From Aquihabitans sp. (lineage in GTDB: Bacteria > Actinomycetota > Acidimicrobiia > Acidimicrobiales > Iamiaceae), in NCBI GenBank assembly GCA_025353965.1, contig JANXNS010000003.1, positions 10,776 through 74,775 of the forward strand: DNA of 64,000 bases, given 5' to 3'. The position numbers and the translations under genes were made by a program. The notes below the pieces were generated by a model that was given only the letters and a program-made list of their open reading frames with translations, ran no database searches and was not told where the DNA came from. Position 1 is the first letter of the stretch; the number at the start of each line of letters is the position of its first letter. Below are positions 37,159 to 53,847 of the stretch, piece by piece.

Positions 37159-37386
37159 ATGCGACGGCAGGTGTGGGTGGTGACGTGCGCGGTCACGGCG
37201 TTGATCTTCGGACTGATGACCGTATGGGTTGTCGGGCTGAACTTGAACGACGTCGGACGCCGCCCCTTCGTTCTCCTGCCCATGGCGGCGTACGGATGGG
37301 CCTGCTTCATGTCGGTCCGTGAGCTCCGTCGTGGGATTCGTGCTCAGCGCTCCCCACATCAGGCCCCGGCGGTGAGCGTCTCCTAA
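37159..37386 (+). CDS. small two-TM hypothetical protein
   Basis: Two hydrophobic segments; its TAA stop lies inside a copy of the 17-bp site. Confidence 0.5.
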   Translation: MRRQVWVVTCAVTALIFGLMTVWVVGLNLNDVGRRPFVLLPMAAYGWACFMSVRELRRGIRAQRSPHQAPAVSVS

Positions 37387-37829
37387 CGCCGGGTTGCTGC
37401 TAGCCGTGGCGGTGGGGGGAGGCTGCTCAGGCGTTTGGACTCGATGCGATCGGTCAGGGCGAGCACCGCTGCTGCGCCCATGCATGCGGTTCCGGGGGCG
37501 ATGAAGATCCCGATGGTCAGCATGGCCGCCATGGTTGCCAAGCCGCTGATCCCGATGACCAGCGCGCCTCCCAAGAAACCCCCGAAGCGGATCAACACGA
37601 TGGCGACTGCGGCCACGATCAACGTTGCTAGAAGCACGCGCCCTGCCATAGCGGGGTTGTTCTTCAGCGCGGAGGCGGTTCGGTGGGTCTCGCTGATCAT
37701 GGCGCCGTCCGGGCCCACCGCGCGGGTTGAGATCTCGCCCCACCCCACCGATACCAGGAATGTGGCTGCCGCCAGCCATAGGACCGCGCCGAGCATGGAG
37801 AGCCAAAGGCTCCACCCTCTTAGGCTCAT
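37383..37829 (-). CDS. hypothetical membrane protein
   Basis: Hydrophobic segments; 4-bp overlap with the upstream TetR gene. Confidence 0.6.
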   Translation of the reverse strand: MSLRGWSLWLSMLGAVLWLAAATFLVSVGWGEISTRAVGPDGAMISETHRTASALKNNPAMAGRVLLATLIVAAVAIVLIRFGGFLGGALVIGISGLATMAAMLTIGIFIAPGTACMGAAAVLALTDRIESKRLSSLPPPPRLAATRR

Positions 37830-38500: not shown

Positions 38501-38545
38501 GAGAGCCCGCGGTCGGAATCGAACCGACGACCTGCCGCTTACAAG
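38501..38545. repeat. distal att site: 45-bp duplicate of the tRNA-Thr 3' half
   Basis: GAGAGCCCGCGGTCGGAATCGAACCGACGACCTGCCGCTTACAAG, identical to 53803-53847. Confidence 0.95.
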
Positions 38546-38801: not shown

Positions 38802-39209
38802 ATGCGAGATCGGCGGGGTCACAAAGGGGGTTCAGGGTTGAGTCGGTGGGACCGACGCAACCAGCGGAAGATGGACCGTGCCAACGAGTCCTTCGTTGAG
38901 GGGATGGCCATTAGCCGCATCGAACAGATTTCCGTCACGGCGGCCGACGGCACGGAGGTTCACGTTGAGGTTCTGCCGTCGTGGATGCCTCTTGGGCATT
39001 GGGATGAGTTGTTCCTAGTCGTCGGCCCTTGCAGCTGGCTCAGGGGACGGCTTCGCGGGTTCAACGGCTTCCAAGCGGTCGCCTGGCGCTACCGGCGAGG
39101 ACTCGGCGTGCTCCCGCACGTGCTGGAACGTCAGCGATGCATCAGCCGCGACGAAGCACGTCAGGTCGCGGCCCAACTCGCGCACAGGCTCGGCGTGGAA
39201 TCCCAGTAG
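38802..39209 (+). CDS. hypothetical protein (cassette-like unit)
   Basis: 135-aa ORF ending 14 nt before the site at 39223. Confidence 0.5.
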   Translation: MRDRRGHKGGSGLSRWDRRNQRKMDRANESFVEGMAISRIEQISVTAADGTEVHVEVLPSWMPLGHWDELFLVVGPCSWLRGRLRGFNGFQAVAWRYRRGLGVLPHVLERQRCISRDEARQVAAQLAHRLGVESQ

Positions 39210-39350
39210 CCAGCCGAAGCAACTGCCCCATACCGCCGGCTCGGGGTCACCGACCAGCACATCTGGGATAGCTCGTCGCAGCTCAGCGCACTCGCTATAC
39301 GCCGTCGCGGCGGCAAGCCATCTATGTTGATGTCTGACGAGGAGTAGCGC

Positions 39351-39536
39351 ATGGGACATGAGGCGGAAGACGCACCGCGGATCGCAGAGTCGGACCTTGA
39401 GCAGGCCGAGGTGCTCGAATCGGCTGGCATGCAGAACTCACTTGTTGTTGCAGGTCCCAGCGCCTTGTTGATGATCCCTGTGGCTTGGGTGCTCACGTCC
39501 GTTGGGCGGGTGGTTCGCCTGCTTTGGAACCGCTAG
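39351..39536 (+). CDS. small hypothetical membrane protein (cassette-like unit)
   Basis: GAGGAG RBS, C-terminal hydrophobic segment, stop 7 nt before the site at 39543. Confidence 0.5.
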   Translation: MGHEAEDAPRIAESDLEQAEVLESAGMQNSLVVAGPSALLMIPVAWVLTSVGRVVRLLWNR

Positions 39537-39872
39537 GTCCACTTGCCCCAGCACGCCCGACAGGGGCGCAGCTCCTCCCCGGCTCAGGCTGAGCCAGGGG
39601 CGCCGCCGCGGGCTGGGCTCTGAGCCCTCCTGCTCGATTCGCCATCGGCTTCTGGCTGAGCGGATCGCGTTGTCATCGCTCGCCCCGCCTCCGTACCAGC
39701 CGCTACGTCCCACCCCGCACCAGTGAGAGAACTCCGACGCATCCCGAACTGTTCGTGAGACCGTTCGCGCCTCCGGGCGATCGGGAGCATCCTGGTGGAG
39801 TTCCAGGTCGAAGCCCTGGCCCGCGAACCAGGCGACGATGTCCTCGATCGGTTCCTGCTCGGGCAGAGGCAT
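39438..39872 (-). CDS. hypothetical protein (cassette-like unit); C-terminus runs through the site at 39543
   Basis: Globular-looking N-terminal ~85 aa; tail overlaps the neighbouring ORF, so the true end is uncertain. Confidence 0.4.
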   Translation of the reverse strand: MPLPEQEPIEDIVAWFAGQGFDLELHQDAPDRPEARTVSRTVRDASEFSHWCGVGRSGWYGGGASDDNAIRSARSRWRIEQEGSEPSPRRRPWLSLSRGGAAPLSGVLGQVDLAVPKQANHPPNGREHPSHRDHQQGAGTCNNK

Positions 39873-39974
39873 CGCGAGACCCTGACATGTGTCCTCGCCA
39901 AGGGCGCCCCCAAACGCCGGGTCGTGGGCATGGTCGCCACAGCGCTCAGGAAGGGACAGTCAGGCGAGGCGGCA

Positions 39975-40301
39975 TCAGGCATCGTCGGACACGATGAGGG
40001 GGCGATTGGTTCGCCGGGTCCAGGGACCACGGCGGCGCACCAACACCTCTACGCCGGAACGAACATCGTGCTGGGCGCAAATGTCGTCGAGCAAACGGCT
40101 CCGGTCGGCGCAATCGGTCGCTACGACCTCCTGCACCACCGCTCCGGTGTCCGCGGCCAGCACGGTGATGCTCCAGCCGGATTCCAGGAGTTCGGCAAGT
40201 GCCGCGTTGCCTGTCTGTACCAGCGCAATCCCCAAAACGCCGATGACGCGTCTACGGGATGGCGGGATCTCTACCACGAGGAGGTCGACGGGATCACCCA
40301 T
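39975..40301 (-). CDS. hypothetical protein (cassette-like unit)
   Basis: GGAGGAGG RBS before MGDPVDLL; bounded by sites 39904 and 40406. Confidence 0.55.
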   Translation of the reverse strand: MGDPVDLLVVEIPPSRRRVIGVLGIALVQTGNAALAELLESGWSITVLAADTGAVVQEVVATDCADRSRLLDDICAQHDVRSGVEVLVRRRGPWTRRTNRPLIVSDDA

Positions 40302-40457
40302 GGCAGCGCCTCCTCCTCCATCTCGATGCGAAATAGGCTGAGAGGCCTGACCCGCCAACCATTGCACGTCTGCCCGAGATCTTAACGCCCGAAGTCCCGG
40401 CTCAGGTGCCCTACAACGCCGGCTCAGGGCGCAGGGATCGACCCAGACGCCTTCTCC

Positions 40458-40988
40458 TCAAGCTCGCTCGACAGGTTGTGTGGACGGCTTCCTGCGGCGA
40501 GCGCCGATCAAGAGGGAACCGATGGCTACCGCTGCCGGCGCAGACCGGAGGACGACATCGCGCGCGACGATTGTCTCCGACGAGTAGCAGGTCTGGTTCT
40601 CGTCGTAGCTGTCGACGAAGCAGCGGCGGTCCTCGCCAGGGTGACGGGCGCCGAAGCTCACCATGAGGACTGCGAGGAGAAGCCAACCCAGCACGATCCA
40701 GGGAGCTGAACGGTGGCGCTCCTTCGCCAGCACCACGAGGCTCGCAAGTAGAGCGGCGGCGATGCCGACTACCACGATGCCGATGTACAGAGTCGGGCCG
40801 TTGGGAAAGTCGGCGCCGTTGTCGCTGCTGTACTCCACGCCGAACATCCTGGGCTTCGAGCCCCAGGCAATGCTTCGGAGGCCGTAGTAGGCGAGGGCCA
40901 GGGCGTACGGGCTTGCCGTCACCAGGGCGATCGCCGTCGACGTACGAACGTGGCCGCCGCCGGCGTTGTCAATCTGCTGTTCCGCCAT
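40458..40988 (-). CDS. hypothetical membrane protein (cassette-like unit)
   Basis: About 4 TM segments; bounded by sites 40406 and 41023. Confidence 0.65.
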   Translation of the reverse strand: MAEQQIDNAGGGHVRTSTAIALVTASPYALALAYYGLRSIAWGSKPRMFGVEYSSDNGADFPNGPTLYIGIVVVGIAAALLASLVVLAKERHRSAPWIVLGWLLLAVLMVSFGARHPGEDRRCFVDSYDENQTCYSSETIVARDVVLRSAPAAVAIGSLLIGARRRKPSTQPVERA

Positions 40989-41106
40989 CGTCGTACCGTA
41001 GCTGCGCGCCGAAACGCCGCGGGTGCCCCCAAACGCCGGGATGCGGCCACGGCCACCTGGCACTTCGGGGATGGTCCGATCGACATGGAGGTCGTAGCGT
41101 CCGTGG

Positions 41107-41739
41107 ATGGCCGCCTTGGAGCATCCGGGTTCTGCGGTCGGCAGTCAGTCCGACAAGGCTGAGTCCGGCGGTGAGAGAGGACCGGTCACGTTGTCCGACG
41201 GAGCAGTCGTGCTCAGACCCTGGAAGTCCTCCGACGCCGCTTTCATGGTTGAAGCCTCGAGGGAACCGGCAATAGAGCGTTACAACGGCACGGCGCCAGC
41301 CTCGGAGGCTGACGCCGTTGCCGTCATCGAGCGCATCCAGGAGAGCTGGCGTGCCTTCGAGGTCGAGGGTCATCCGACGGGGACCGCCTTCGTGATCGTG
41401 GATGCTGCCCTGGACGAACCTGTCGGAATGTGTGGCGTCGACCACTGGTCGAGCACCGACGTAGCCCAGTTCGGTTACTGGCTGGCGGCCGGTGCAAGAG
41501 GGCGAGGGATTGCGACTCGCGCCGCAACGCTGATGACGGGTTGGTTGTTCGAGCTCGGAGCGGCCCGGGTCTTCCTGACGATTGAGACCGACAACGCACC
41601 ATCGGTTGCGGTCGCCCGTCGGGTCGGGTTCACCTGCGAGGGCACGCTTCGTGCCTTCGGCGTCTGGCAGGGGCAACGTCGAGACGTGGACGTTTTCGCC
41701 GTCCTTCCCGATGAGTGGCCTCTGGGCGGGGACCACTGA
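41107..41739 (+). CDS. GNAT family acetyltransferase (RimJ/RimL-like)
   Basis: VVLRPW, QFGYWL...ARGRGIATRA, NAPSVAVARRVGF..EG; the site at 41740 follows the stop directly. Confidence 0.9.
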   Translation: MAALEHPGSAVGSQSDKAESGGERGPVTLSDGAVVLRPWKSSDAAFMVEASREPAIERYNGTAPASEADAVAVIERIQESWRAFEVEGHPTGTAFVIVDAALDEPVGMCGVDHWSSTDVAQFGYWLAAGARGRGIATRAATLMTGWLFELGAARVFLTIETDNAPSVAVARRVGFTCEGTLRAFGVWQGQRRDVDVFAVLPDEWPLGGDH

Positions 41740-41826
41740 CTGCCCCGCAACGCCGGGTAGAGGCCGCGACCGACGGCACATCGGTGGCACCCTCGGGTGA
41801 CGTCCAGGCCCGCGGCCACCGAGTGC

Positions 41827-42210
41827 ATGATGTGGACAATGCGGATTGCGATTGCGGTTGTGTTGGTACTCGCTGCGGTGGGGTGCGGGAACATCGTCTC
41901 GGACTCCGACGCGTTAGCGGTTCGGTTCAAGAACGACCTGGGCAAGCCCGTGCGGCTTGCACTCTGCAACAGCGACCACAGCGAGAAGTGCGAGAATCCG
42001 GCCTACTCCGACCCGGTCCCTGCTGGCGGGTCGATCGAGGAGAACATCGCTCCGACCGTGCAGACGGAATGGGCTGTGCTGGACGACCGGGATCGTCCCA
42101 TGCGCTGCGTTGTCCTCTACTGGCAACATGATCCGCTCGACGAGCCAGTCATTCGGTTGTCCTCCTCGCCACGATGGGCGAACCCTTGCCCCCGTCGGTC
42201 CAACACGTAA
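41827..42210 (+). CDS. putative lipoprotein (cassette-like unit)
   Basis: Signal peptide with lipobox LAAVG-C; Cys-containing mature domain. Confidence 0.65.
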   Translation: MMWTMRIAIAVVLVLAAVGCGNIVSDSDALAVRFKNDLGKPVRLALCNSDHSEKCENPAYSDPVPAGGSIEENIAPTVQTEWAVLDDRDRPMRCVVLYWQHDPLDEPVIRLSSSPRWANPCPRRSNT

Positions 42211-42332
42211 GTCGAGTCGAGGACCCCGGGTCGCTGGCGGGTGTCCCACAACGCCGGGTCGAGGCGTGCCAGACCGGCACCTTCGGGATACTCATCATCT
42301 TCGCCAGAACTGGCTTTCCTTGGACTTCGTCG

Positions 42333-42875
42333 TCAACCCAGCTTTCGGTCGTAGCGGCGAGCCACCGCGGCGAGTAGGGCCAGAACCACACTCAGGGCCA
42401 CCACCAGGCCCGCAGCTGCGTATGGCCACGAGCGATCGAAGCCGGTCGACGACGACCCAAGGTAGGAGCCGTCGATCGCGGTGGTGCCAGCGCCGGTACC
42501 GCAGTCGCCGTGAAAGTCGTAGGCGATCTGGGAGCTGACCCCATCCCCGCCAGACTGGTTGTTCCACCCCTTCACCCGATAGGACTCCCTCGGCATGAGC
42601 TCGCCGGGCGACCCGTCGTAGCGAACCACAACGGTTCCGCCCGGTTCCGGAATCTGACCCGCCCCGAACGGGTTGTCCTGTCGCACCCTGTCCACGCGAT
42701 AGGTGATACGGGGGCCGTCCATGGAGACGATCGTGCCGTCGAAGCTGAACCTCATCGCCCCCATCGAGCATGCATCCGCTCGCACCGGTTCACCGAGTGC
42801 GCCGAACGTAGCAGCGGCTACAAGCACGACCGCAGCCACCGACCACCGCCCCGCCCGCCAGACATCCCTCGCCAT
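42333..42875 (-). CDS. secreted, C-terminally anchored protein (cassette-like unit)
   Basis: Signal peptide, ADACSM, C-terminal TM segment followed by RRYDRK. Confidence 0.62.
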   Translation of the reverse strand: MARDVWRAGRWSVAAVVLVAAATFGALGEPVRADACSMGAMRFSFDGTIVSMDGPRITYRVDRVRQDNPFGAGQIPEPGGTVVVRYDGSPGELMPRESYRVKGWNNQSGGDGVSSQIAYDFHGDCGTGAGTTAIDGSYLGSSSTGFDRSWPYAAAGLVVALSVVLALLAAVARRYDRKLG

Positions 42876-42985
42876 CGCGGCATTCTGCCACAAAGTGCCC
42901 GGACGCGCACCCGGCTCCGCGACCCCATTGAGGTGCCCCACAACGCCGGTTCCCGGCGAGGGTTGTGCTCACTTGGCAGCCGAGG

Positions 42986-43624
42986 TCACCTGCCATGGCG
43001 GTCCGGCGTGTCGTTGAGCCAGAGGTCCGCATCCGGTCGGCGTCTGCGCTTCCACCACATCGCCGCCCGGAACCGTCGCGGGATCCTGCGCGGTTCTTCG
43101 ATCCTGAGCTGGCCGATGACGTTGCCGTCGACATCGAGGACCTCCGTGCTGCGTGCGGATGCGCGGTCAACCGTCACGACCCAGCCATGCGCGGGAACGT
43201 CTCGCGTCCGACCGTCCCTCCGCATCCGGGTTGCCTCCGAGACCAGGAGCCAGAGCCCGACGCAGTCTCCGGTGCGGACGTCGCCCTGCGTCGCGCCCTC
43301 CGAACACCCGTTGTGTCCCGACGTTGATCGAGGCGGAAGCACTGGCTCGCTGAAGTCCGATGAAGGACCGATCTGATCCCACACCCACGCCCCCTCTTCG
43401 CGACGGAAGCGGTGCGCTTCGATTACGAGCCCTGTGCGCTTGCCTCGACGTGCCACGGCCACGGCGGCGAGGTCCCCTCGAACATCGAGGCCCAGGAGGC
43501 GCCACCGTTGCCGACGGCTCATCTCCTTGGGGGAGCCGAGTCCATCGGCGTCGAGTGCCGCGGCCGCGCCCGCCACAATTTCCGCCCGTTGGGCGAGGAC
43601 TCGTTCCAGGTCTGCGCGTCGCAC
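42986..43624 (-). CDS. hypothetical protein (cassette-like unit)
   Basis: ORF between sites 42933 and 43682; GTG start inferred. Confidence 0.45.
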   Translation of the reverse strand: MRRADLERVLAQRAEIVAGAAAALDADGLGSPKEMSRRQRWRLLGLDVRGDLAAVAVARRGKRTGLVIEAHRFRREEGAWVWDQIGPSSDFSEPVLPPRSTSGHNGCSEGATQGDVRTGDCVGLWLLVSEATRMRRDGRTRDVPAHGWVVTVDRASARSTEVLDVDGNVIGQLRIEEPRRIPRRFRAAMWWKRRRRPDADLWLNDTPDRHGR

Positions 43625-43696
43625 AGCGCCAACGATTGCACCTGCGCCATCAAGAGACGGCGCGAGTTCACACAGCAGCGAGTGCCCCACAACGCC

Positions 43697-44227
43697 TAAT
43701 ACATGGGTGATCCATCGGGTCTCTCGGTGTAGCTCGCTGGTGGCGGGGAGCATGCGGGGATGAGCGACTTCCCATGTCTGGTCCGATCCTCGGGCGCTGG
43801 CGGGGAGGTGCGGTTCGCGCTGGGTGATCCGCTGGTCGACTCGTATCTGGCGTTCGTGGCTGGGAGGGCTCGGCCGAACACGCTGCATGCGGTCGCACGC
43901 GATCTGAAGACCTTCTTCACTGTCGTGGCCGAGGGGCCGGCCGAGGTGAGGTCTGCGGACGTGTTCGAGTTCCTGGCGCATCAGCGCGGCGACCGGACGG
44001 TGGTGCGCATCTCCGATCGCGAGTCGGGGTTGTCGGCGCGGACGATCGCCCGGCGGCTCTCGACGGTGTCGGGGTTCTACGCGTACCTGGTCGCGCGCGG
44101 CGACGCCGGCGTAGACGCGAACCCGGTTCCTCGGGGTCTGGCCACACGTCGACGTGGCGGACGCACCCAGACGGTCCCGTTGGTCCGGGCTTGGTGGCTG
44201 GCAGCCGCCTTCTCTTGGGCCATGTAA
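43697..44227 (+). mobile_element. internally deleted tyrosine-recombinase element inserted in a 17-bp site
   Basis: Terminal inverted repeats TACATGG (43700-43706) and CCATGTA (44220-44226) around a truncated integrase. Confidence 0.6.
43760..44227 (+). pseudogene. N-terminal (SAM-like) fragment of a XerD-like tyrosine recombinase
   Basis: LVDSYLAFV..RARPNTL, LSARTIARRLSTVSGFY.YL, NPVP; catalytic domain absent. Confidence 0.82.
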
Positions 44228-44258
44228 ACCATGGGGCGTCCGCAGGCGTATCTGAGGT

Positions 44259-44762
44259 GTGGAAGTGATCGGCGAGCGCGCTTTTGACGGAGAGTTCCCC
44301 GACCTGCTCCGTGTTGCGTACCGAGCAGCCTTCCGGATCACCGGAGACGCGGCCGCTGCAGAGGACGCCGCTGCGGAGGCACTGGCGAGGGCGTCGCTGC
44401 GTTGGGAACGCATCTCCGAACGGGCCACGCCCTGGGTCGTCCGGGTCGCGTCGAACCTTGCCGTCGACCACCTCCGCCGGGCTGCTCGCCGGAACCGGTT
44501 CGCACGGGACCGCTCCGATGCCAGCCCGGGCGAACACCGCTGCACCATCGACCTCCACCGGGCTCTCCAGACCCTGCCCAGACGACAACGTGAGGTCGTC
44601 GTCCTCCGGTATTTCGGTGACCTGAGCGAAGCCGAGATCGCAGCCGAGCTCGGCGTCGCCGCCGGAACCGTGAAGAGCCACGCCAGCCGCGGCCTCGCCG
44701 CCCTCCGCCTGCTCCTCGAAGACCGTCCTGTTCCTGCCGCCCTGCAACGAGAGGCAAGCTAA
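44259..44762 (+). CDS. ECF RNA polymerase sigma factor (SigE-like)
   Basis: AEDAAAEALARA, PWVVRVASN, LPRRQREVVVLRY, GVAAGTVKSHASRG. Confidence 0.92.
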   Translation: MEVIGERAFDGEFPDLLRVAYRAAFRITGDAAAAEDAAAEALARASLRWERISERATPWVVRVASNLAVDHLRRAARRNRFARDRSDASPGEHRCTIDLHRALQTLPRRQREVVVLRYFGDLSEAEIAAELGVAAGTVKSHASRGLAALRLLLEDRPVPAALQREAS

Positions 44763-46207
44763 TGACCGAGAACCAGTCCCTCGGGCACCCTGCACAAGAG
44801 CCCGACACCGCCACCGAAGCCCGAGTCCGGGCGCGAGTCACTGCGACCGTCCGCCTACGACGGGCCCGCCGGCGTGCCATGACCGCCCTTCCCGTCATCG
44901 CCGTGATCGCTCTCGTAGCCGTAGCCGTCGCCAACACGCGGGACAACAGCACGGGCCAGGACCGCCAAGTCGTCACCGCCGGGCACGGCGACGTCGAGCT
45001 GGCGTTCGAACCGGACGTCGAATGGGACGACGCCGTCTTGTCCGCCGACGGCAAGACCCTGACGGTGACCGCCAGCCGCGTCCTGCACAACTCGAGGAGC
45101 TGCCAGCTCGACGTCCTCCACGACGTCGTCGAAACCGATGATGCGGTGACCATCGGCCTCAAGGACGCCACCGCACCCGAGGACACAACTCCGATGGCAT
45201 GCAAGGCGGTGCTCGTACCCGCCGTCGTCAAGATTCCACTCAATGAACCTCTGGGGGACCGGGCCGTCTTTGACGGTGTGCGACCCAAGGCGCGCACTGT
45301 CCTCCGGCTCGCCGAGCTCGTCCAGGTCACCTACGTCCCCGCCGGGTTCACGACCAACCCCGACGACATCCCGTCCAAAGACACGAACGTGCAGCAGACC
45401 TACAATGCCGACGGGGCCGACTGGTACTTCGCTGTCAACGAAACCAAGGCTGCGACGCCGACCGACCTCCCGGGCGCCACGTCGACACCGATCTTGGTCA
45501 ACGACATCGAAGGTGTGCGGATCACCGGTCAGATGAACAACACCATGGAGTCCATCCGCTTCCCCCTTGGCGGCCGGACGGTCACCGTGTGGGGCGAGAT
45601 GCAAGGACCGCCGACGTTCACCCACGCCGACGAGCTCCAAAAGATCGCCGAGGGCATCCGACTCCTCGAAGCGGGAGCCAAGGATCTTCCGGCGGTCACA
45701 ACTTCAGCCCCAACGGATTCCGGCCACAGCACCGGAGCCCCCAAAGGGACACCCCAGCAGCCCACCCCTCAGACCGATAGCTTCGAAATCGAAGTGTCCC
45801 CCGAGTCCCCATACGCAATCGGGATTCGAAAGGCTCTCGACTTAGGCCCAACTCCCGTCACACGGGTCACACGGGTCAACGTTGACAACAAATCGTTCGT
45901 GCACGACAGCGTCAACACGCAAGCCGATCAAGGTCTCAGCGCAACGATCTACCACGATTGCGCCCTCTTCCTGACAGAGAGGGGCGAACCCGACGCCGCC
46001 TCCTCAGGTGCCAATGTCTGGATCGGCGTCGTGAACGACGAGCTCGTGACGCTCGGCTTCTACAACCCCGAAACGGGAGTGGCACTCTCGGTGAGCTACA
46101 CAAGCGCTGACCACCGGCCCGTCACCACCGCCAGCCTGACTGCAACCGCAGCACGCTTGTCCGCCGTGCCGGCCGTGGTGGAAGAAGTCGGAGGTGGCTG
46201 TGAGTAG
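44762..46207 (+). CDS. membrane-anchored extracytoplasmic protein (putative ECF partner)
   Basis: TAATG coupling to the sigma gene, basic patch plus one TM segment, large ectodomain. Confidence 0.62.
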   Translation: MTENQSLGHPAQEPDTATEARVRARVTATVRLRRARRRAMTALPVIAVIALVAVAVANTRDNSTGQDRQVVTAGHGDVELAFEPDVEWDDAVLSADGKTLTVTASRVLHNSRSCQLDVLHDVVETDDAVTIGLKDATAPEDTTPMACKAVLVPAVVKIPLNEPLGDRAVFDGVRPKARTVLRLAELVQVTYVPAGFTTNPDDIPSKDTNVQQTYNADGADWYFAVNETKAATPTDLPGATSTPILVNDIEGVRITGQMNNTMESIRFPLGGRTVTVWGEMQGPPTFTHADELQKIAEGIRLLEAGAKDLPAVTTSAPTDSGHSTGAPKGTPQQPTPQTDSFEIEVSPESPYAIGIRKALDLGPTPVTRVTRVNVDNKSFVHDSVNTQADQGLSATIYHDCALFLTERGEPDAASSGANVWIGVVNDELVTLGFYNPETGVALSVSYTSADHRPVTTASLTATAARLSAVPAVVEEVGGGCE

Positions 46208-46701
46208 GTGTGACCGGGCCCTGCCCCCTGCCGCCGGGGCTGGACCAGCCCGGACCGCCATCTTGTTCGTGGCCAGCGCCTATTGCCATCCGGCCCAGTA
46301 CCCCGGCCAGGCCCGGCGCGTCTACTGCGTTGCGGCTGTCGTCCCGCTGGCGGGCTGAGCAGGCTCGACCGCTTCAGTCAGCGGTGATCGAGACCTCCAC
46401 CGTGTGAAGCCCCTGGGCCGATTCTGTGACCTGGGGATTACGCGAAGTCCCTGCTCAGAGGGTCCGCTTGGGCACCCCGAATTCACTCCCGTACCCCTCA
46501 GTCCATCCCGTCCGCGGGTTTCCGCGGGTTTTCTGGCCGCCGGTCAGGCTGGCCCCGGCGCTCCAAGCGGAAGCGAGAAGCCAGGGCTGAACGCTCTCGG
46601 GTATGACGCTGGGAGCGACCTTCGCCCGTCGCTAGCAGACCCGGAAAGTGTGATCGGTGTCGGCGGGGGCGTCCCTCGGTCGTTGATGTAAGTTTTGATC
46701 G

Positions 46702-48213: not shown

Positions 48214-48374
48214 GGACGACCTACGAAGGTCTCACCCTCCGAGTATCCCCTATCACCGGCAATACGGGTCCGTGGGTCACCCGTAGAACAGCGACTCTAG
48301 GAGCCCCCAGCAGCGCTCTGGTGTCGGAGCGATCACGGTGCCATCCAGGGGCGTTACGGGATAGAACTGACGGC

Positions 48375-48629: not shown

Positions 48630-49007
48630 ACGCCGGAGTCGCAACTCTCTGGCCGCCACCTAACCCCGATTATGTGTGGGCCTGGTGCCGAGGACCTCGG
48701 CGGTCCGTCGAAGTCAGCGCTGGGGCGGGCTGCGGTGGCCGAAGGCCGGCTCGGGCGGGCGGTTCCGCCAGGACCGGGCGAATTGCGCCGCTAATCCCGA
48801 AGTCCGGCTTTGAGCCGAACGCCGCCCCGTCGGCGGGTGATCCGCCCTCGGTCGATACAGGTTGTCGGGCGTGCGGATGCCGTCGGCGGGGGCTGGCGCC
48901 GCAGGTCGCTGGCAGGCCGGATCTGACAGCGACCGCTCGGATCTCGCCACGGCACCACCGCCTCGGGCGGCGAGCGAAGCCTGAATCGAACTTTCCTGCG
49001 GATCTTC

Positions 49008-49039: not shown

Positions 49040-49097
49040 ATGTGAACGACGATTTTGGACAGACGAGTGCATTGTGTCCCGGTGGGTGGTCCCGGTG

Positions 49098-51725
49098 ATG
49101 CGGGTGACGACGCTGAAGACGTCGGCCGGTGGCCTTGCTGGGTTGATCGGCTACTACGCCGGTCTGGCCGAGGACCGCACCCGTCAGGGCGCCGGGCGTG
49201 GCCCGGTGGATTACTACGTGGACCCGGACGAGCCGGCCGGCGTGTGGTGGGGATCGGGGCTCGGCGCCCTCGGCCTACGCGGCGAGGTCCAGGGTGAGGA
49301 CCTGCGTTCGTTGCTGGCGGGGGAGGACCCGGCGACAGGCTGGCCGTTGGGTCGGTCGTTCGGCGAGCGCTCGGCCCGCGGGTTTGATGCGACGTTCTCG
49401 GCGCCGAAGTCCGTCTCTGCGCTGTGGGCGCTGACGCCGGATCGGTGGGTTCGGGCCGAGGTCCTGGCCGCGCATGATGCTGCCGTGACGGCGGCCCTCG
49501 GGTGGTTCGAGGAGCACGGGGCGGTGACGCGCCGTGGCCGCGATGGTGTCGATCAGGTCGACTCGCTTGGGGTGACGGCGGCGTTGTTTCGTCAGCACAC
49601 GTCGCGGTCGATGGACCCGCAGTTACACACCCACGCGGTGATCTCGTCGAAGGTCCAAGACGCCACGGGGAAGTGGTTGGCGCTCGATGCCCGGTTCTTG
49701 AAGTTTCAGCAACGCAGCATCGGCTGGATCTACGACGCCGCCCTCCGCTCCGAGCTCACAACCCGCCTCGGCGTCACCTGGGATGCCGTCACAGCTGGAC
49801 CGGTCGACCTGGCCTGCGTTCCCGCTGAGGTGCGAGGCGTGTTGTCGAAACGGACCGGACAGATCGACGAGAAGCTCGGCGAGCTGCTCGAGCGGTGGAT
49901 GAACGAACACGACGGCGACGACCCAGACCCGGAGACGATCGCCGCGCTGGAACGCAAAGCCGTCCTCGCCTCCCGGCCAGCCAAGACGCACGGCGTCGAC
50001 GCTGGCGGGCTGCACCAGGAATGGGCGGCAGAGGCCGAGTCGGTGGGATTCGACCCGGACTCGCTGACAGCCGGTGGCATCCGGCGGCACGAGTCGCCAT
50101 CGCGAGTCGACGACCTGGCGTTGATCGAGGCTGCGATCGCTGGGGTGTCGGAGGAGTCCTCGACGTGGCTCGAAGCGGACTTGGCTCGGCACCTGGCCAC
50201 GATGCTCCCGGCCGACACCGGCCGCTCTGCGCAGGGTCTGGTCGTACTGATCGACAGCCTCGCTGCGTCGGCGGTGTCGTACTGCCGGGACATCTCCCCG
50301 GTCCCGTCTTGGGGGCCGTGTCGCAAGGACGGCCGTCCGATCGGTGAGCACGTCACGGACCACCGACTCAGCACCGATGACATCCTCGACCAAGAGCAGG
50401 ACCTGCAGGACTGGGCCCAAGCCTCCACCACCCCGCCGCCGGCCACCGATGACCCACAAGCAACCGCGGCCGGCGCCATCGCCGGGACCGACGGGCTGGT
50501 GGTGATCGTGGGCCCGGCGGGGACCGGCAAGACCACCACCATCGCCCGATCCGTCACCACCCTCCGCCACCAGCGACGGCCAGTCGTGGGCCTGGCGCCG
50601 TCGGGTAAGGCCGCCGACGTGCTCGCCACCGAGGCCGGCTGCGACAGCCTCACCCTCGCCTCGTTCCTCCAACGCCACACCGACCAGAGCCGACCGTCCG
50701 CGTGGCCGGCGGGGACGACGGTGGTGCTCGATGAGGCCGCGATGACCCGCACCGACGACCTCCACCGCCTCGTCACCCTCACCCGCCAACACCAATGGCG
50801 CCTCGTCGCCGTCGGCGACCCGGCACAACTCGGGGCCGTCGGACGCGGCGGAGTGTTCGCCCACTGGACCGCGACCGTCGCACACCACGAACTGGTAACC
50901 CCCCGGCGCTTCACCGAGCCCTGGGAAGCCGCCGCCAGCATCGCCCTGCGCGCCGGTGCCCCCGACGTCGCCGAGATCTATGCGTCGCATCACCGGCTCC
51001 ACACCACCCACCCCGCCCTCCTGGCCGCCCGCATCGCTCGTGAGGCTGCCGCTGACCTGGCGGCTGGGCTCGACATCGCCATCACCACCAAGACCGCCGA
51101 CACCGCACGGGCCATTAACCGAGCCATCCAGAACGCCCGACCCTCGGACCCCGAGCTGCACGTCGAGCTGGCGGATGGCACTTCGGCCCACGATGGTGAC
51201 CGAGTTGCCACTCGTCGCAATCGACCCGACCTCGTCACTACCGAGGGCGAGCCGGTTCGCAACCGGCACACCTGGACCGTCCGGGCTGTCGGCACCGATG
51301 GCGCGCTCACCGTCGACCACCCCAAGCGAGGCAGCGTCGTGCTGCCCGCCGACTACGTGGCCACGCAGGTCGAGCTCGGTTGGGCCGTCACTGGCTATGG
51401 GAACCAGGGCGACACCGTCGACATCGCTTACGCCATCCTCGAAGCCGGCACTGACCGCTCCGATGCCTATGTCGCGCTCACGCGCGGCCGTCACGCCAAC
51501 CACGCCTTCATCCCCGACCCCACCGGCACCCTCGACGCCGCCGAACAACTGGCCCAGACCATCAGCCACACCCCCGAACACGACTCGGCTCTCGCCTCCC
51601 ACCGGGCGCTCGTCCGCACCCACCTCAGCCACCAGAAACACGAACCGGCAGGCCCTGAGCCGATGACGGAGCCGCCCGCAAGCTCTGCCCCGTCCCACCA
51701 CGAACCGCCCGGACTGTCACTCTGA
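49098..51725 (+). CDS. MobF (TrwC/TraI-like) relaxase-helicase
   Basis: N-terminal Tyr pair (GYY), W.G.G, DATFSAPKSVS, HTSR..DPQLHTH His triad; helicase GPAGTGKTT, LDEAAM, AVGDPAQL, QG.TV, YVALTRGR. Confidence 0.95.
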   Translation: MRVTTLKTSAGGLAGLIGYYAGLAEDRTRQGAGRGPVDYYVDPDEPAGVWWGSGLGALGLRGEVQGEDLRSLLAGEDPATGWPLGRSFGERSARGFDATFSAPKSVSALWALTPDRWVRAEVLAAHDAAVTAALGWFEEHGAVTRRGRDGVDQVDSLGVTAALFRQHTSRSMDPQLHTHAVISSKVQDATGKWLALDARFLKFQQRSIGWIYDAALRSELTTRLGVTWDAVTAGPVDLACVPAEVRGVLSKRTGQIDEKLGELLERWMNEHDGDDPDPETIAALERKAVLASRPAKTHGVDAGGLHQEWAAEAESVGFDPDSLTAGGIRRHESPSRVDDLALIEAAIAGVSEESSTWLEADLARHLATMLPADTGRSAQGLVVLIDSLAASAVSYCRDISPVPSWGPCRKDGRPIGEHVTDHRLSTDDILDQEQDLQDWAQASTTPPPATDDPQATAAGAIAGTDGLVVIVGPAGTGKTTTIARSVTTLRHQRRPVVGLAPSGKAADVLATEAGCDSLTLASFLQRHTDQSRPSAWPAGTTVVLDEAAMTRTDDLHRLVTLTRQHQWRLVAVGDPAQLGAVGRGGVFAHWTATVAHHELVTPRRFTEPWEAAASIALRAGAPDVAEIYASHHRLHTTHPALLAARIAREAAADLAAGLDIAITTKTADTARAINRAIQNARPSDPELHVELADGTSAHDGDRVATRRNRPDLVTTEGEPVRNRHTWTVRAVGTDGALTVDHPKRGSVVLPADYVATQVELGWAVTGYGNQGDTVDIAYAILEAGTDRSDAYVALTRGRHANHAFIPDPTGTLDAAEQLAQTISHTPEHDSALASHRALVRTHLSHQKHEPAGPEPMTEPPASSAPSHHEPPGLSL

Positions 51726-52241: not shown

Positions 52242-52448
52242 ATGACCACCCTGGACACCTCGCATGACGGGTCCCTCATGGACCTGCCTGCCGTTGCTGA
52301 ACGGCTCGGCGTCAACGAACGACACATCCGACGCCTCGTTGCCGAACGACGCATCCCCTATCTCAAGTGGGGCCACCTGCTCCGCTTCGACCCCACCGAC
52401 ATCGACACCTGGCTCGACCAGGCCCGCCACACCCCACGCACCGCCTGA
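52242..52448 (+). CDS. excisionase-like HTH_17 protein
   Basis: LMDLPAVAERLGVNERHIRRLV..RRIPYLKWGHLLRFD; GGAGG RBS. Confidence 0.88.
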   Translation: MTTLDTSHDGSLMDLPAVAERLGVNERHIRRLVAERRIPYLKWGHLLRFDPTDIDTWLDQARHTPRTA

Positions 52449-52527
52449 ACACCCGTACCCTGGAGCTGCACGCGTCGTCGGGGTCGCTCAACCCCCTCCT
52501 CCCACCCTGCAATCGGGAGGTCGTTCA

Positions 52528-53691
52528 ATGACGCGCCGATCCTTCGGAGCCCTACGCAAGCTCCCCTCCGGACGCTGGCAAGCCAGCTACACCGACGAAC
52601 GCACCGGCGAGCGAACCATCGCCCCGGCCACCTTCACCACCAAGACCGACGCCAACCTCTGGCTCTCCAGCATCTCCCTCGACCGCTCACGCGGCCGGCT
52701 CCTCGACCAAAAGCTCAGCCAACGACCCTTCCAGGACTGGGCAGCCGAGTGGATGGGCGGGCTCCACGTAAAGCCCAAGACCGAGGTGAGCTACGAGTCG
52801 TCACTGCGCAACCACGTCCTGCCCGTCTTCGAGGGGCGAGCGGTCGGATCGATCACGTATCGCGACGCCAAGCAGTTCGTCGCCGATCTCGCCAACAAGG
52901 GGCTGGCCCCCGGCACAATCGACGAGGCCCGCAAGATCCTTCGGATGGTGCTCCAGGAGGCACTCCGGGCCGACGCCATCAGCCGCAACCCCGCCGACGG
53001 GCTCCGGGTCCCCCGAGGCGAGCGGCAGGAGATGGTGTTCTTGACCGCCGAGCAGGTCTTCGCCCTCGCTGACGAAGTCGCTCACCCTCCACGCCCCCAG
53101 CGCCACCCGCAGCTGGAGTTTCCGAACTACGGACTGCTGGTGCGGTTCGCGGCGTTCACCGGTCTCCGAGCGGGTGAGATCGGCGCCCTCCGCATCGGAC
53201 GCATGGCTCCGGACGGTCGCTGGGTCGAGGTCGCCGAATCAGCAGAAGAGGTTCACGGCGAACTCGTCTACGGCCCTCCCAAGACCTACGCCCGGCGCCG
53301 AGTCGAAATTCCGACCGCTCTGGCGGTCGAGCTCCAAGAGCACCTGGCGACGCGGCCGGCTGCGCACGACGCGTTCGTGTTCACCGCCCCGGACGGCGGG
53401 GCCCTCCGTCACTCGAACTTCTACCGACGCCACTACAAGCCGGCGGTGGCCCGTTCGGACCTCGACCCCCGGACCCGGTTCCACGATCTCCGCCACACCG
53501 CCGCCGCGATGATGATCGGTCAGGGCGCCCACCTGCTCGTGGTCAAGGAGCGCCTCGGGCACTCCAGCATCACGGTCACCGCCGACCGGTACGGGCACCT
53601 CTACCCATCCCTATCGGCTGCGCTGACCGCCCAGCTCGAGGACGTCTACACCGCGGCCGCGGGCACCGGCAGCGCCCGCAACCGGCCGTGA
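52528..53691 (+). CDS. tyrosine recombinase/integrase
   Basis: Complete catalytic set: GLRAGE (R), FHDLRHT (HxxR), RLGHS (H), RYGH (Y); N-terminal RKLPSGRWQA arm domain. Confidence 0.96.
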   Translation: MTRRSFGALRKLPSGRWQASYTDERTGERTIAPATFTTKTDANLWLSSISLDRSRGRLLDQKLSQRPFQDWAAEWMGGLHVKPKTEVSYESSLRNHVLPVFEGRAVGSITYRDAKQFVADLANKGLAPGTIDEARKILRMVLQEALRADAISRNPADGLRVPRGERQEMVFLTAEQVFALADEVAHPPRPQRHPQLEFPNYGLLVRFAAFTGLRAGEIGALRIGRMAPDGRWVEVAESAEEVHGELVYGPPKTYARRRVEIPTALAVELQEHLATRPAAHDAFVFTAPDGGALRHSNFYRRHYKPAVARSDLDPRTRFHDLRHTAAAMMIGQGAHLLVVKERLGHSSITVTADRYGHLYPSLSAALTAQLEDVYTAAAGTGSARNRP

Positions 53692-53802: not shown

Positions 53803-53847
53803 GAGAGCCCGCGGTCGGAATCGAACCGACGACCTGCCGCTTACAAG
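53803..53847. repeat. proximal att site (within tRNA-Thr)
   Basis: Identical to 38501-38545. Confidence 0.95.

What the first reader, a model, noticed from the sequence alone, without database searches (positions are those of the whole stretch)
39223..46237. Integron-like gene-cassette array delimited by a novel 17-bp site
Seen: one same-strand site between essentially every adjacent ORF. Copies: CTGCCCC-ATACC-GCCGG (39223), TTGCCCC-AGCAC-GCCCG (39543), GCGCCCC-CAAAC-GCCGG (39904), GTGCCCT-ACAAC-GCCGG (40406), GTGCCCC-CAAAC-GCCGG (41023), CTGCCCC-GCAAC-GCCGG (41740), GTGTCCC-ACAAC-GCCGG (42241), GTGCCCC-ACAAC-GCCGG (42933), GTGCCCC-ACAAC-GCCTA (43682), CTGCCCC-CTGCC-GCCGG (46221). The first eight intervals are 320-749 bp and hold one unrelated ORF each, in either orientation. 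Plus-strand ORFs stop 0-30 nt before a site. Established: compact one-gene units of GNATs, lipoproteins and small membrane proteins are typical of integron cassettes, but integrons are reported as very rare in Actinomycetota and their cassettes are co-oriented with full attC hairpins. Inference: an undescribed site-specific gene capture/shuffling system riding on a mobilisable element.
Basis: partly seen in the sequence, partly recalled or inferred. Interest (0 to 1): 0.92.

Follow-up and report, generated by a model that had tools for sequence, protein, structure and literature searches.

The report
Actinobacterial gene-cassette array with recombinase sites
A mobilisable island in an actinobacterial genome carries a row of single-gene units, each bounded by the same ~28-bp tyrosine-recombinase site; the same units turn up between the same sites in unrelated genomes, so this looks like an integron-like gene-shuffling system built from different parts.

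Summary
Eight copies of GTGCCCCACAACGCCGG (≤3 mismatches) lie on the + strand between 39223 and 43698 (0.83 expected), and none elsewhere in the 64 kb. The two weaker copies also exist.

The site is longer than 17 bp. It is a ~28-30-bp dif-like core: arm TGYCCCMGAH, centre CGCCGG, arm STCGGKGRCA.

Copy 43682 is the insertion junction of a truncated 2.4-kb element that encodes two Tn554-related tyrosine recombinases. In about 80 other actinobacterial loci the intact element is always preceded by such a site, with the sequence switch after CGCC.

Same-strand arrays of these sites, about 680 bp apart with genes in either orientation, are common in Acidimicrobiia genomes and metagenomes (131 same-strand neighbour pairs against 3 opposite).

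Cassettes recur in different arrays with breakpoints exactly at the sites. This includes two of the window's own units: 42948-43696, and the sigma/anti-sigma unit ending at site 46221.

It is not an integron: there is no IntI, no attC hairpin and no co-orientation. The most likely reading is a distinct cassette system, apparently undescribed, riding here on a tRNA-Thr integrative mobilisable element. Recombinase activity on cassettes is inferred, not shown.

The parts
38501..38545 (.). Distal att repeat of the integrative mobilisable element (copy of the 3' part of tRNA-Thr); left boundary of the island that carries the array
   Evidence: 45-nt exact direct repeat with 53803-53847; tRNA-Thr at 53805-53879
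39222..39251 (+). Cassette site S1 (ACTGCCCCATACCGCC|GGCTCGGGGTCACC)
   Evidence: 3 mismatches to the 17-mer; 30-nt matrix score 30.2
39542..39571 (+). Probable degenerate cassette site S2
   Evidence: Matrix score 7.4, within the noise level; supported only by position, 6 nt after the stop of ORF 39351-39536
39903..39932 (+). Cassette site S3
   Evidence: score 27.2
40405..40434 (+). Cassette site S4
   Evidence: score 25.2
41022..41051 (+). Cassette site S5
   Evidence: score 25.2
41739..41768 (+). Cassette site S6; starts at the base after the GNAT stop codon
   Evidence: score 26.7
42240..42269 (+). Cassette site S7
   Evidence: score 28.1
42932..42961 (+). Cassette site S8 (exact consensus 17-mer)
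   Evidence: score 25.9; the left homology boundary of cassette C9 with L208 falls at its crossover
43681..43696 (+). Left half-site S9 (AGTGCCCCACAACGCC), interrupted at the crossover by the recombinase element
   Evidence: Junction GCC|TAATACATGG is identical in form to ~80 junctions in other loci. In L208 the orthologous site is unoccupied
43697..44189 (+). 5' remnant of the 2.4-kb two-recombinase (Tn554-related) element: left inverted repeat TAATACATGGGTGATC (43697-43712) and recombinase A truncated after about codon 143 (ORF 43760-44227). The catalytic domain, recombinase B and the right end are deleted
   Evidence: 84% nt identity to L002 9919-10430; Pfam finds only the N-terminal SAM-like domain; 1267 homologues; no other A or B copy in the window
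44210..46235 (+). Two-gene cassette: ECF sigma factor (44259-44762) and a 481-aa anti-sigma-like protein (44762-46207). Its first ~130 bp were lost in the deletion that truncated the recombinase element
   Evidence: 84% nt identity to L083 1590-3093, where the unit is flanked by sites at 1445 and 3611 and has different upstream cassettes; Pfam
46220..46249 (+). Cassette site S10, the 3' site of the sigma cassette
   Evidence: Matrix score 12.5; positional orthologue of the strong L083 site at 3611
38871..39209 (+). ORF of the first unit (no known family); start uncertain
39351..39536 (+). Cassette ORF, 61-aa predicted membrane peptide
39975..40301 (-). Cassette ORF, 108 aa, no known family
40458..41063 (-). 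Cassette ORF, membrane protein (true start probably near 40989)
41107..41739 (+). Cassette ORF, GNAT acetyltransferase
   Evidence: Pfam Acetyltransf_3, E = 4e-23
41797..42210 (+). Cassette ORF, putative lipoprotein
42333..42941 (-). Cassette ORF, secreted or anchored protein, no known family
42986..43650 (-). ORF of cassette C9 (cassette 42948-43696), no known family. The same cassette occurs in other arrays and in many metagenomes
37375..37404 (+). Candidate solitary site outside the island's left boundary
   Evidence: Matrix score 18.9; about 1.7 hits ≥10 expected per 64 kb
48242..48271 (+). Weak candidate site
   Evidence: Score 11.3
48652..48681 (+). Weak candidate site
   Evidence: Score 13.4
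49074..51725 (+). TrwC-type relaxase/helicase of the carrier island
   Evidence: Pfam TrwC, E = 1.6e-71
52264..53691 (+). Tyrosine integrase of the carrier island (acts on the tRNA att, not on the cassette sites)
   Evidence: Pfam Phage_integrase; adjacent to tRNA-Thr
53805..53879 (-). tRNA-Thr(TGT), integration target of the island

Best explanation
Window 39.2-46.2 kb is an array of small mobile gene cassettes carried as cargo on a 15.3-kb integrative mobilisable element inserted in tRNA-Thr.

Each cassette is [GGST… one or two genes with their own expression signals, in either orientation … RSTGYCCCMNAHCGCC]. It starts just after the crossover point of one site and ends with the left part of the next. 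Neighbouring cassettes are therefore separated by a complete ~28-30-bp site with tyrosine-recombinase core architecture: ~10-bp imperfectly inverted arms around an asymmetric 6-bp centre, CGCCGG.

The proposed enzyme is a heteromeric pair of Xer-like, Tn554-related tyrosine recombinases: A (~348 aa) and B (~431 aa, with a Cys-rich C-terminal tail). The pair is encoded on its own 2.4-kb cassette-like unit. When joined, the ends of that unit (GATCACCCGTATAA … TAATACACGGGTGATC) would form a 14-6-14 palindromic site with centre CGCCTA.

That unit integrates in one orientation into cassette sites. A truncated, dead copy sits in site S9 of the window.

Recombination between two directly repeated sites would excise a cassette as a circle carrying one site. 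The circle could re-enter any other site. The asymmetric centre fixes the orientation, which would explain why all sites in an array point the same way.

Shown: the site, its architecture, strand coherence, the exact insertion junctions of the recombinase unit, and cassette-wise homology with breakpoints at the crossover.

Inferred: that A+B (supplied in trans here) catalyse cassette excision and integration, and that circles exist.
For: Site statistics in the window:
- 8 copies against 0.83 expected, all on one strand.

Site architecture:
- 55 sites from independent loci give RSTGYCCCMNAHCGCCGGSTCGGKGRCA.
- The right-arm columns were not used to select the sites, yet are conserved and complementary to the left arm.

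Link to the recombinase unit:
- 83 left ends of the unit are each preceded by a different instance of …TGYCCCnnAnCGC(C/T).
- Joining the two flanks of 51 intact copies rebuilds a complete site (median score 14.8 against -2 for controls; about 30 score ≥14).
- The unit has terminal inverted repeats and a constant length of ~2412-2426 bp. Both proteins keep the R…HxxR…H…Y motifs.
- The window junction GCC|TAATACATGG has exactly this form.

Arrays elsewhere:
- L063 has 15 sites; L022, L044 and L071 also have arrays.
- Motif-seeded metagenome contigs with arrays include L090, L105, L118 and L140.
- Neighbour pairs are 131 same-strand against 3 opposite.
- 153 intervals have a median of 681 bp.

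Cassette modularity, with breakpoints at the crossover:
- Window C9 against L208 and L209 (86% nt identity, different neighbours, 3' site unoccupied in L208).
- Window sigma unit against L083.
- L044 against L071; L046 against L048; L017 occupied against L166 empty.
- C9 31-mers occur in ≥14 studies, against 3 for the neighbouring cassettes. Contigs from three other environments cover C9 at 97-100% identity but not C8.

Family placement:
- B is 50% identical to the long recombinase of the pREL1 pair, which has similar inverted repeats. That pair is listed as Tn554-like by Van Houdt 2012 (PMC3414803).
Against: - No experiment or read-level evidence of excision. Only assembled contigs were available, and no joints at sites were seen.
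- The window's recombinase copy is dead, and no intact A or B lies in the 64 kb. Whether the host genome has one is unresolved.
- In 375 kb of motif-seeded metagenome contigs, no A/B gene lies next to an array. The contigs are short, but the arrays could be served by another enzyme.
- The arms of the recombinase unit's own joined site differ in sequence and spacing from the cassette-site arms. Efficient site-by-site recombination by A/B is therefore not guaranteed.
- An unrelated IS110-family element also targets the same position. Being a target does not by itself identify the cassette recombinase.
- L208 has a different Xer-like recombinase gene next to its array.
Confidence: 0.62

Rival explanations
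1. The sites are genuine recombination sites bounding mobile cassettes, but the cassette recombinase is something else: a host Xer-type enzyme, or another array-associated tyrosine recombinase such as the one beside the L208 array. On this reading the two-recombinase Tn554-like unit and the IS110 element are merely parasites that home to these sites, as IS1111-attC elements and group IIC-attC introns home to integron attC sites.
For: - No A/B gene lies within 375 kb of motif-seeded array contigs.
- An unrelated IS110-family element is inserted at the same position in two sites.
- L208 has a distant (27% identity) Xer-like recombinase gene directly after the last site of its array.
- The arms of the unit's own site differ from the cassette-site arms.
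Against: - A/B must bind and cleave cassette sites in order to integrate there. The unit itself has cassette anatomy: it starts after the crossover and ends in …AACGCC.
- Subfamilies of A/B co-vary with variants of the target, CGCC|GG against CGCT|GAYT.
- No alternative enzyme is consistently linked to arrays in the data at hand.
Confidence: 0.22
2. The motif is a REP-like or regulatory intergenic repeat (a protein-binding or terminator-like element) that accumulates in a variable region. It happens to be used as a landing pad by site-specific insertion elements, and the genes between copies are not mobile units.
For: - The sites are intergenic.
- Solitary copies exist in chromosomes, e.g. as targets of many A/B copies and possibly at 37375 in the window.
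Against: - Orientation follows the array, not the genes: 64 ORFs on the site strand against 70 opposite, while sites are 131:3 co-oriented.
- No hairpin or terminator potential (z-scores -1.4 to +2).
- Homology between arrays begins and ends at the crossover inside the site, on both sides of a unit, in at least six independent comparisons.
- The motif is absent from ~59 kb of surrounding sequence.
Confidence: 0.06
3. It is a classical integron or a CALIN (a cluster of attC sites lacking an integrase).
For: One-gene units, mostly ORFans plus GNATs and small membrane proteins; a recombinase gene reading away from the end of the array.
Against: - No IntI. A and B score 38-46 bits against the integron-integrase models, whose cut-offs are 265 and 435.
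- The sites are ~30-bp sequence-conserved duplex-type cores that do not fold better than shuffles.
- Cassettes are not co-oriented.
Confidence: 0.01

Closest known systems
Integrons (IntI / attI / attC cassette arrays, including sedentary chromosomal integrons and mobile integrons)
   Same: - Arrays of compact, mostly single-gene and mostly ORFan cassettes.
- Each cassette begins just after a crossover point and ends with its own recombination site.
- All sites are co-oriented.
- A tyrosine recombinase gene sits at the array end, reading away from it.
- Arrays are carried on mobile platforms.
- The sites are also exploited by IS110/IS1111-type elements.
- The same cassette is found in different arrays.
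   Different: - The recombinase is not IntI. It is a pair of Xer-like, Tn554-related proteins that is itself a movable unit.
- The sites are short (~28-30 bp), sequence-conserved and dif-like in layout. They are not 57-141-nt structure-conserved hairpins recombined as a single strand.
- Genes lie in either orientation, so there is no common Pc promoter logic.
- The host phylum is Actinomycetota, where integrons are rare.
Tn554 and the 'Tn554-like' actinobacterial two-recombinase transposons (Van Houdt et al. 2012, PMC3414803; e.g. the pREL1, pSCP1 and pRHL2 pairs without TnpC)
   Same: - Two adjacent, co-directional tyrosine recombinase genes, a short one followed by a longer one.
- Site- and orientation-specific insertion without target duplication.
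- Multi-copy and near-identical within genomes.
- B is 50% identical to the long pREL1 protein, and the terminal repeats share GATCACCC/GGGTGATC.
   Different: - B is 431 aa, not 611-828 aa: it lacks the long N-terminal extension.
- There is no TnpC and no cargo.
- The target is a family of repeated ~28-bp sites that bound other genes in arrays. No such cassette arrays are described for Tn554-like elements in the paper read. The pREL1 copy sits in an unrelated target.
Acinetobacter pdif modules (XerC/XerD-dependent modules on plasmids)
   Same: Small gene modules, often a single gene, bounded by ~28-bp sites of arm-6 bp-arm architecture. The modules are found in different contexts with breakpoints at the sites.
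   Different: - pdif sites flanking a module are in inverted orientation and resemble chromosomal dif. They are thought to use host XerC/D.
- Here the sites are all direct, GC-rich and unlike dif, and are linked to a dedicated mobile recombinase pair.
SCC elements and composite SCC islands (ccrAB)
   Same: - A two-recombinase unit.
- Tandem accretion of elements separated by short direct-repeat sites.
- Non-autonomous units lacking recombinases are presumably mobilised in trans.
   Different: - Ccr proteins are large serine recombinases.
- There is a single chromosomal target (orfX).
- The elements are tens of kb, not 0.3-2 kb.

Membership tests
Integron | IntI-type integrase (tyrosine recombinase with the IntI-specific additional domain) | tested here: not met
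   Recombinases A and B, and the island integrase, score 30-40 bits against TIGR02249 (cut-off 265) and ≤24 bits against NF011946 (cut-off 435). Their best matches are the XerC/XerD/XerA models, also below cut-off. Pfam shows only generic Phage_integrase and SAM-like domains.
Integron | attC sites: imperfect hairpins of 57-141 nt, conserved in structure rather than sequence | tested here: not met
   The sites are ~30 nt and sequence-conserved. Eight window sites folded as single-stranded DNA give z-scores from -1.4 to +2.0 against shuffles. An Rfam scan of 37-49 kb shows no structured family. IntegronFinder's attC model itself was not available.
Integron | Cassettes promoterless and co-oriented downstream of Pc/attI | tested here: not met
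   In 153 inter-site intervals, the best ORF is on the site strand in 64 and on the opposite strand in 70. In the window the split is about 5 to 5.
Integron | Cassette = unit from one crossover to the next; the same cassette occurs in different arrays | tested here: met
   This is a functional resemblance only.
Tn554-like two-recombinase transposons | Two adjacent co-directional tyrosine recombinase genes homologous to the family | tested here: met
   A (348 aa) and B (431 aa) overlap by 4 nt in L011. B is 50% identical over 96% of its length to the 611-aa protein of the pREL1 pair, which is listed as Tn554-like in PMC3414803 Table 2. There are weaker (24%) hits to Enterococcus and Staphylococcus plasmid integrases. 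Direct alignment to Tn554 TnpA/TnpB was not done.
Tn554-like two-recombinase transposons | Abnormally long second recombinase (611-828 aa) and, in Tn554 proper, TnpC | tested here: not met
   B is 428-431 aa in intact copies, and no third gene lies inside the 2.4-kb unit.
Tn554-like two-recombinase transposons | Site- and orientation-specific insertion without target duplication | tested here: met
   83 left junctions and 51 flank reconstructions rebuild a single uninterrupted site.
Xer/dif-type modules (pdif) | ~28-bp site with two ~11-bp arms and a 6-bp centre | tested here: met
   The consensus TGYCCCMGAH-CGCCGG-STCGGKGRCA has arms that are largely reverse-complementary.
Xer/dif-type modules (pdif) | Modules flanked by inversely oriented sites | tested here: not met
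   131 same-strand against 3 opposite-strand neighbouring pairs.
Xer/dif-type modules (pdif) | Sites resemble the host dif and are recombined by host XerC/XerD | not testable with these tools
   The host's dif site and Xer genes are not in the window, and whole genomes could not be read.
Integrative mobilisable element (carrier) | Integrase next to a tRNA target, direct att repeats, relaxase, no full conjugation apparatus | tested here: met
   A second, independent example with a tRNA-Val target also carries an array (L118).

The most novel reading that the evidence does not exclude
Actinomycetota (especially Acidimicrobiia) possess a second gene-cassette system, evolved independently of integrons. 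A mobile heteromeric pair of Tn554-related tyrosine recombinases would capture, excise and reshuffle promoter-bearing one- or two-gene cassettes through short duplex dif-like sites. This would build strand-coherent arrays, some of which travel on tRNA-targeting integrative mobilisable elements.
Probability: 0.5. Interest if true: 0.9.

Novelty: new variant of a known kind. Interest (0 to 1): 0.82.

Why it matters
Integrons are the textbook gene-cassette system and are almost absent from Actinomycetota.

If confirmed, a widespread actinobacterial analogue would change three things:
- It would show that cassette-based genome plasticity evolved more than once, here from different recombinases and a different kind of site.
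- It would explain part of the small-ORFan accessory genome of abundant soil and freshwater Acidimicrobiia.
- It would give a function and a target to the hitherto cryptic Tn554-like recombinase pairs.

It could also provide a compact two-protein, 28-bp-site recombination tool for high-GC bacteria.

The system is directly testable. The sites and proteins are defined. Cultured carriers of parts of the system exist: Aquihabitans sp. McL0605 has sites and a C9 homologue, and Jatrophihabitans lederbergiae DSM 44399 has the recombinase unit.

Tried and rejected
- **attC-like hairpins.** One site (42933) has a neat CACAACGCCGG…CCGGCgaggGTTGTG stem. The others do not, and none folds better than shuffles. 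Rejected.
- **Rfam scan of 37-49 kb.** Nothing relevant.
- **Island integrase or relaxase as the cassette enzyme.** The integrase's att is the 45-bp tRNA repeat, and nothing links the relaxase to the sites. Set aside.
- **Dispersed REP or chance.** Rejected.
- **Window cassettes against the 80 recombinase-seeded loci by blastn.** No hits except the recombinase remnant. The informative homologues came later, through proteins and the k-mer index.
- **Systematic test of all inter-locus blast segment ends against sites.** Not significant overall (1.9% against 1.1% random), because most shared segments are IS elements or core genes. Only curated cases are used as evidence.
- **Homologue P0123 of the 481-aa protein (L082).** Uninformative context.
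- **Search for excision joints or circles.** Only assembled contigs were available for all runs, and no joints at sites were seen.
- **Search for an intact A/B in the source community.** Many fragmentary relatives at various depths; none could be assigned to the host.
- **Within-array homogeneity of the variable site positions.** Only a modest effect (0.47 against 0.38). Not used as evidence.
- **Function of the cassette proteins.** Apart from the GNAT, sigma factor and glyoxalase, there are no hits in Pfam, NCBIfam or PADLOC.
- **Literature.** Seven full-text searches found no description of these arrays.

Full report
**1. The observation**

The region was read directly.

A search with the consensus GTGCCCCACAACGCCGG, allowing three mismatches, returns eight copies. 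All are on the + strand and all lie between 39223 and 43698. Dinucleotide-preserving shuffles give 0.83 expected, and none of 100 reaches eight. There are no hits in the rest of the 64 kb. A looser pattern also recovers 39543 and 46221.

The spacing (320-749 bp), the one ORF per interval in either orientation, and + strand ORFs ending 0-30 nt before a site are all correct (and the gene calls).

**2. Context**

- A 45-bp exact direct repeat (38501-38545 and 53803-53847) is the 3' part of tRNA-Thr(TGT) at 53805-53879.
- Between the repeats lie a tyrosine integrase (52264-53691) and a TrwC relaxase/helicase (49074-51725).
- The array therefore sits inside a 15.3-kb integrative mobilisable element, at the end far from the integrase.
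- The source is a rock metagenome. The same contig is present in several runs of one study.

**3.

ORF 43760-44227 lies directly after copy 43682. It is the N-terminal SAM-like domain of a tyrosine recombinase and nothing more.

It has more than 1200 close relatives (70-86% identity), mostly on short or frameshifted contigs. That pattern is typical of a multi-copy mobile element.

Alignment with two long contigs shows that homology starts not at the gene but at …GAGTGCCCCA(C/G)A(A/T)CGCC|TAATACA(T/C)GGGTGATCC.

Seventy-eight further loci were retrieved from one-per-species genomes. They are mostly Acidimicrobiia, but also Jiangellaceae, Jatrophihabitans, Mycobacterium, Streptosporangiaceae and Solirubrobacterales, and often there are several copies per genome. 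They show a constant 2412-2426-bp unit with these features:
- a left end TAATACACGGGTGATC;
- a right end GATCACCCGTATAACGCC, which is the inverted repeat of the left end;
- two overlapping genes, A (~348 aa) and B (~431 aa).

Both proteins are Xer-like simple tyrosine recombinases with R…HxxR…H…Y motifs. B has a Cys-rich C-terminal tail.

Joined head to tail, the ends would make GATCACCCGTATAA-CGCCTA-ATACACGGGTGATC, a classical arm-centre-arm core site.

B is 50% identical over nearly its whole length to the 611-aa member of a recombinase pair on Rhodococcus plasmid pREL1. That element has analogous ends, ATATGTGGGTGATC and GATCACCCACATAA. Van Houdt et al. list the pREL1 pair among 'Tn554-like' actinobacterial elements without TnpC (PMC3414803).

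In the window the unit is dead. Homology stops at 44189, so the catalytic half of A, all of B and the right end are missing. No other A or B copy is in the 64 kb.

**4. The motif is the recombination target of that unit**

They differ even between copies in one genome, so they belong to the target, not to the element.

Joining the left and right flanks of 51 intact copies rebuilds an uninterrupted site. The median matrix score is 14.8, against -2 for a control, and about 30 score ≥14. More divergent subfamilies use a co-varying variant, …GATCGCT|GAYT….

The window's copy 43682 (GTGCCCCACAACGCC|TAATACATGG) is exactly such a junction.

**5. Anatomy of the site**

The consensus is RSTGYCCCMNAHCGCCGGSTCGGKGRCA.

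The left arm TGYCCCMGAH and the right arm STCGGKGRCA are largely reverse-complementary around the asymmetric centre CGCCGG. This is a dif/lox-type layout of about 10-6-10. The switch of sequence always falls after CGC(C).

The sites do not fold better than shuffles as single strands (z from -1.4 to +2.0), and nothing matches Rfam. They are duplex-type, sequence-specific sites, unlike attC.

**6. Arrays are a general phenomenon**

Around recombinase copies there are long arrays. L063 has 15 sites over more than 17 kb on both sides of the inserted unit. L022, L044, L071, L011 and L033 have smaller ones.

It returned many further arrays, such as L090, L092, L105, L113, L118, L140 and L163.

Neighbouring sites within 2.5 kb are co-oriented in 131 cases and opposed in 3. 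Across 153 intervals the median spacing is 681 bp, and the best ORF is on the site strand in 64 and on the other strand in 70.

Some solitary motif hits are false positives inside nrfA coding sequence.

None of the first 80 motif-seeded contigs (375 kb) carries A or B.

L118 was retrieved by motif alone. It is a second island of the same kind: tRNA-Val, an integrase, a TrwC remnant and a nine-site array.

**7. Are the units between sites mobile?**

Six comparisons say yes.

(a) *Window cassette C9 (42948-43696).*
- Its 31-mers occur in at least 14 independent studies (rock, freshwater, sediment, soil, hot spring). The neighbouring cassettes occur in three.
- Contigs from three other environments cover C9 at 97-100% identity but give no coverage of the adjacent cassette C8.
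- Its protein homologues lie in other arrays, L208 and L209, at 86% nt identity and with entirely different neighbours.
- Homology begins at …CC|GGTTCC… and ends at …GAGTGCCCC…CC|. That is the crossover on both sides.
- In L208 the 3' site is unoccupied, where the window has the recombinase unit.

(b) *The window sigma/anti-sigma pair (44259-46207).*
- It is 84% identical to a unit in L083 that is flanked by strong sites on both sides and preceded by four unrelated small cassettes.
- It also shows that a deletion in the window fused the truncated A gene to the sigma cassette, removing about 130 bp of the latter.

(c) *L044 against L071.* 80% identity over 756 bp. The boundaries are a site on one side, and a site or the right end of the recombinase unit on the other.

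(d) *L046 against L048.* 94% identity over 595 bp, with boundaries at the crossover and different neighbours.

(e) *L017 against L166.* The same upstream cassette (96.6% identity) ends in the same site. The site is occupied by the recombinase unit in one and empty in the other, and the downstream sequence differs.

(f) *L169 against L189.* One further partial case.

A blind test over all shared blast segments was not significant, because most shared segments are IS elements or core genes. The evidence therefore rests on these curated cases.

**8. Most likely mechanism**

The cassettes are units running from one crossover to the next. Recombination between two direct sites would release a circle carrying one complete site. 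That circle could integrate at any other site, with the asymmetric centre enforcing orientation. This accounts for the strand coherence.

The A/B pair is the best candidate enzyme, for four reasons:
- It demonstrably recombines with these sites.
- Its own unit has cassette anatomy.
- It co-varies with site variants.
- It lies in or beside arrays, including this one.

That A/B act on two cassette sites, and that circles form, is inferred rather than shown. I put 0.62 on the whole statement. I would put about 0.9 on 'these are tyrosine-recombinase sites and targets of the A/B unit', and about 0.8 on 'the units are or were mobile cassettes'.

The main rival (0.22) is that another recombinase moves the cassettes while A/B and an IS110-family element merely home to the sites. 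That IS110-family element is inserted at the same position in two sites of L002. L208 has a different Xer-like gene beside its array.

**9. Comparison with known systems**

Functionally the closest is the integron, but three defining features tested here are not met: an IntI-type integrase, attC hairpins and co-oriented promoterless cassettes.

The recombinase unit is a short-B, TnpC-less relative of the Tn554-like actinobacterial pairs.

The site layout resembles Xer/pdif sites. However, the sites are direct rather than inverted, GC-rich, and linked to a dedicated recombinase pair.

Composite SCC islands are a looser analogy.

**10. Novelty and limits**

I found no description of these arrays in seven full-text searches. 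The library does not cover subscription journals, so prior description cannot be excluded.

I rate it a new variant of a known kind (site-specific cassette arrays) with high interest.

Limits:
- There are no raw reads for the relevant runs.
- Whole genomes could not be scanned.
- Whether the host genome holds an intact A/B copy is unresolved.
- The cassette proteins are almost all without known family.

Noticed in passing
L002:13846-15219 and L002:18296-19669: Two 98%-identical copies of an IS110-family (DEDD transposase) element sit at the crossover position of two cassette sites (…GGTGCCCCCGAACGCC|AGTGAGG… and …AGCATC|GG…). An unrelated class of site-specific element therefore also homes to these sites, much as IS1111-attC elements home to integron attC sites.
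   Followed up: partly
L020:2573, L039:15014-17488, L048:14465-16927, L021:9243: A second, divergent subfamily of the two-recombinase unit has the left end GGTTATACAGGTGATCCACC. Its junction keeps the full CGCC|GG centre of the cassette sites.
   Followed up: partly
L003, L049, L070, L072-L074, L079 (flanks of the recombinase unit): More divergent A/B subfamilies sit in a variant target, …(C)AGATCGCT|GAYT(A/C)YGYGC…, instead of …CGCC|GGST…. This suggests co-evolution of recombinase and site.
   Followed up: partly
L208:1-840 (minus strand): A different Xer-like tyrosine recombinase (27% identical to A and B; 122 bits to the XerC model, below cut-off) lies directly after the last site of an array that contains a homologue of window cassette C9. 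It is cut by the contig end. It is a possible alternative array-associated recombinase.
   Followed up: partly
L118:53-12128: An independent metagenome contig found by motif alone has tRNA-Val, an integrase, a TrwC relaxase remnant and a nine-site array. This is a second island of the same design as the window's carrier.
   Followed up: partly
L205 (Aquihabitans sp. McL0605, CP188252.1 1085684-1106220): 18613, 19085, 19505 minus strand; 9875-10539: A cultured Acidimicrobiia isolate has three strong co-oriented sites separated by small genes (Glyoxalase_6, TfoX_N). About 8 kb away it has a 78%-identical homologue of window cassette C9 with degenerate flanks. It could serve as an experimental host.
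   Followed up: partly
window:37375-37404: A good site match (score 18.9) on the + strand lies about 1.1 kb outside the island's left att repeat. It overlaps the stop of a minus-strand membrane-protein ORF and is followed leftwards by a GNAT gene (36620-37117). It may be a solitary chromosomal site, or a trace of an older array next to the tRNA hotspot.
   Followed up: no
window:32411-32850 and 33968-34450: Outside the island there is a second ECF sigma gene (33968-34450, minus strand). There is also a stretch 76% identical to the C-terminal part of the L083 anti-sigma-like gene, closer than the window's own cassette copy is over that part.
   Followed up: no
window:39658 and 46922 (runs X1, X3, X4): Contigs of the source study join a piece ending at 39658 to a piece starting at 46922, with 7 unmatched letters (TGGACGA) between. 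Depth is 16-30. Neither end is at a site. This is unexplained, and may be a paralogous locus.
   Followed up: no
L096, L097, L112, L124, L146, L199 (metagenome loci): The degenerate site pattern also matches a conserved stretch inside nrfA (cytochrome c nitrite reductase) coding sequence. These solitary hits are false positives, and any census should filter them out.
   Followed up: yes
window:27594-27641 and 8794-9144: There is a 12-bp tandem repeat, CCATGACCATCC, in about four copies. There is also a 126-nt direct repeat (73% identity, 225 bp apart) inside a large ORF. Neither is related to the finding.
   Followed up: no
proteins P0001-P0120: Nearly all database proteins of recombinase family A are fragments of 150-270 aa, from contig ends, frameshifts in long-read assemblies and real truncations. 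Automated annotation therefore badly under-represents the intact two-gene unit.
   Followed up: partly
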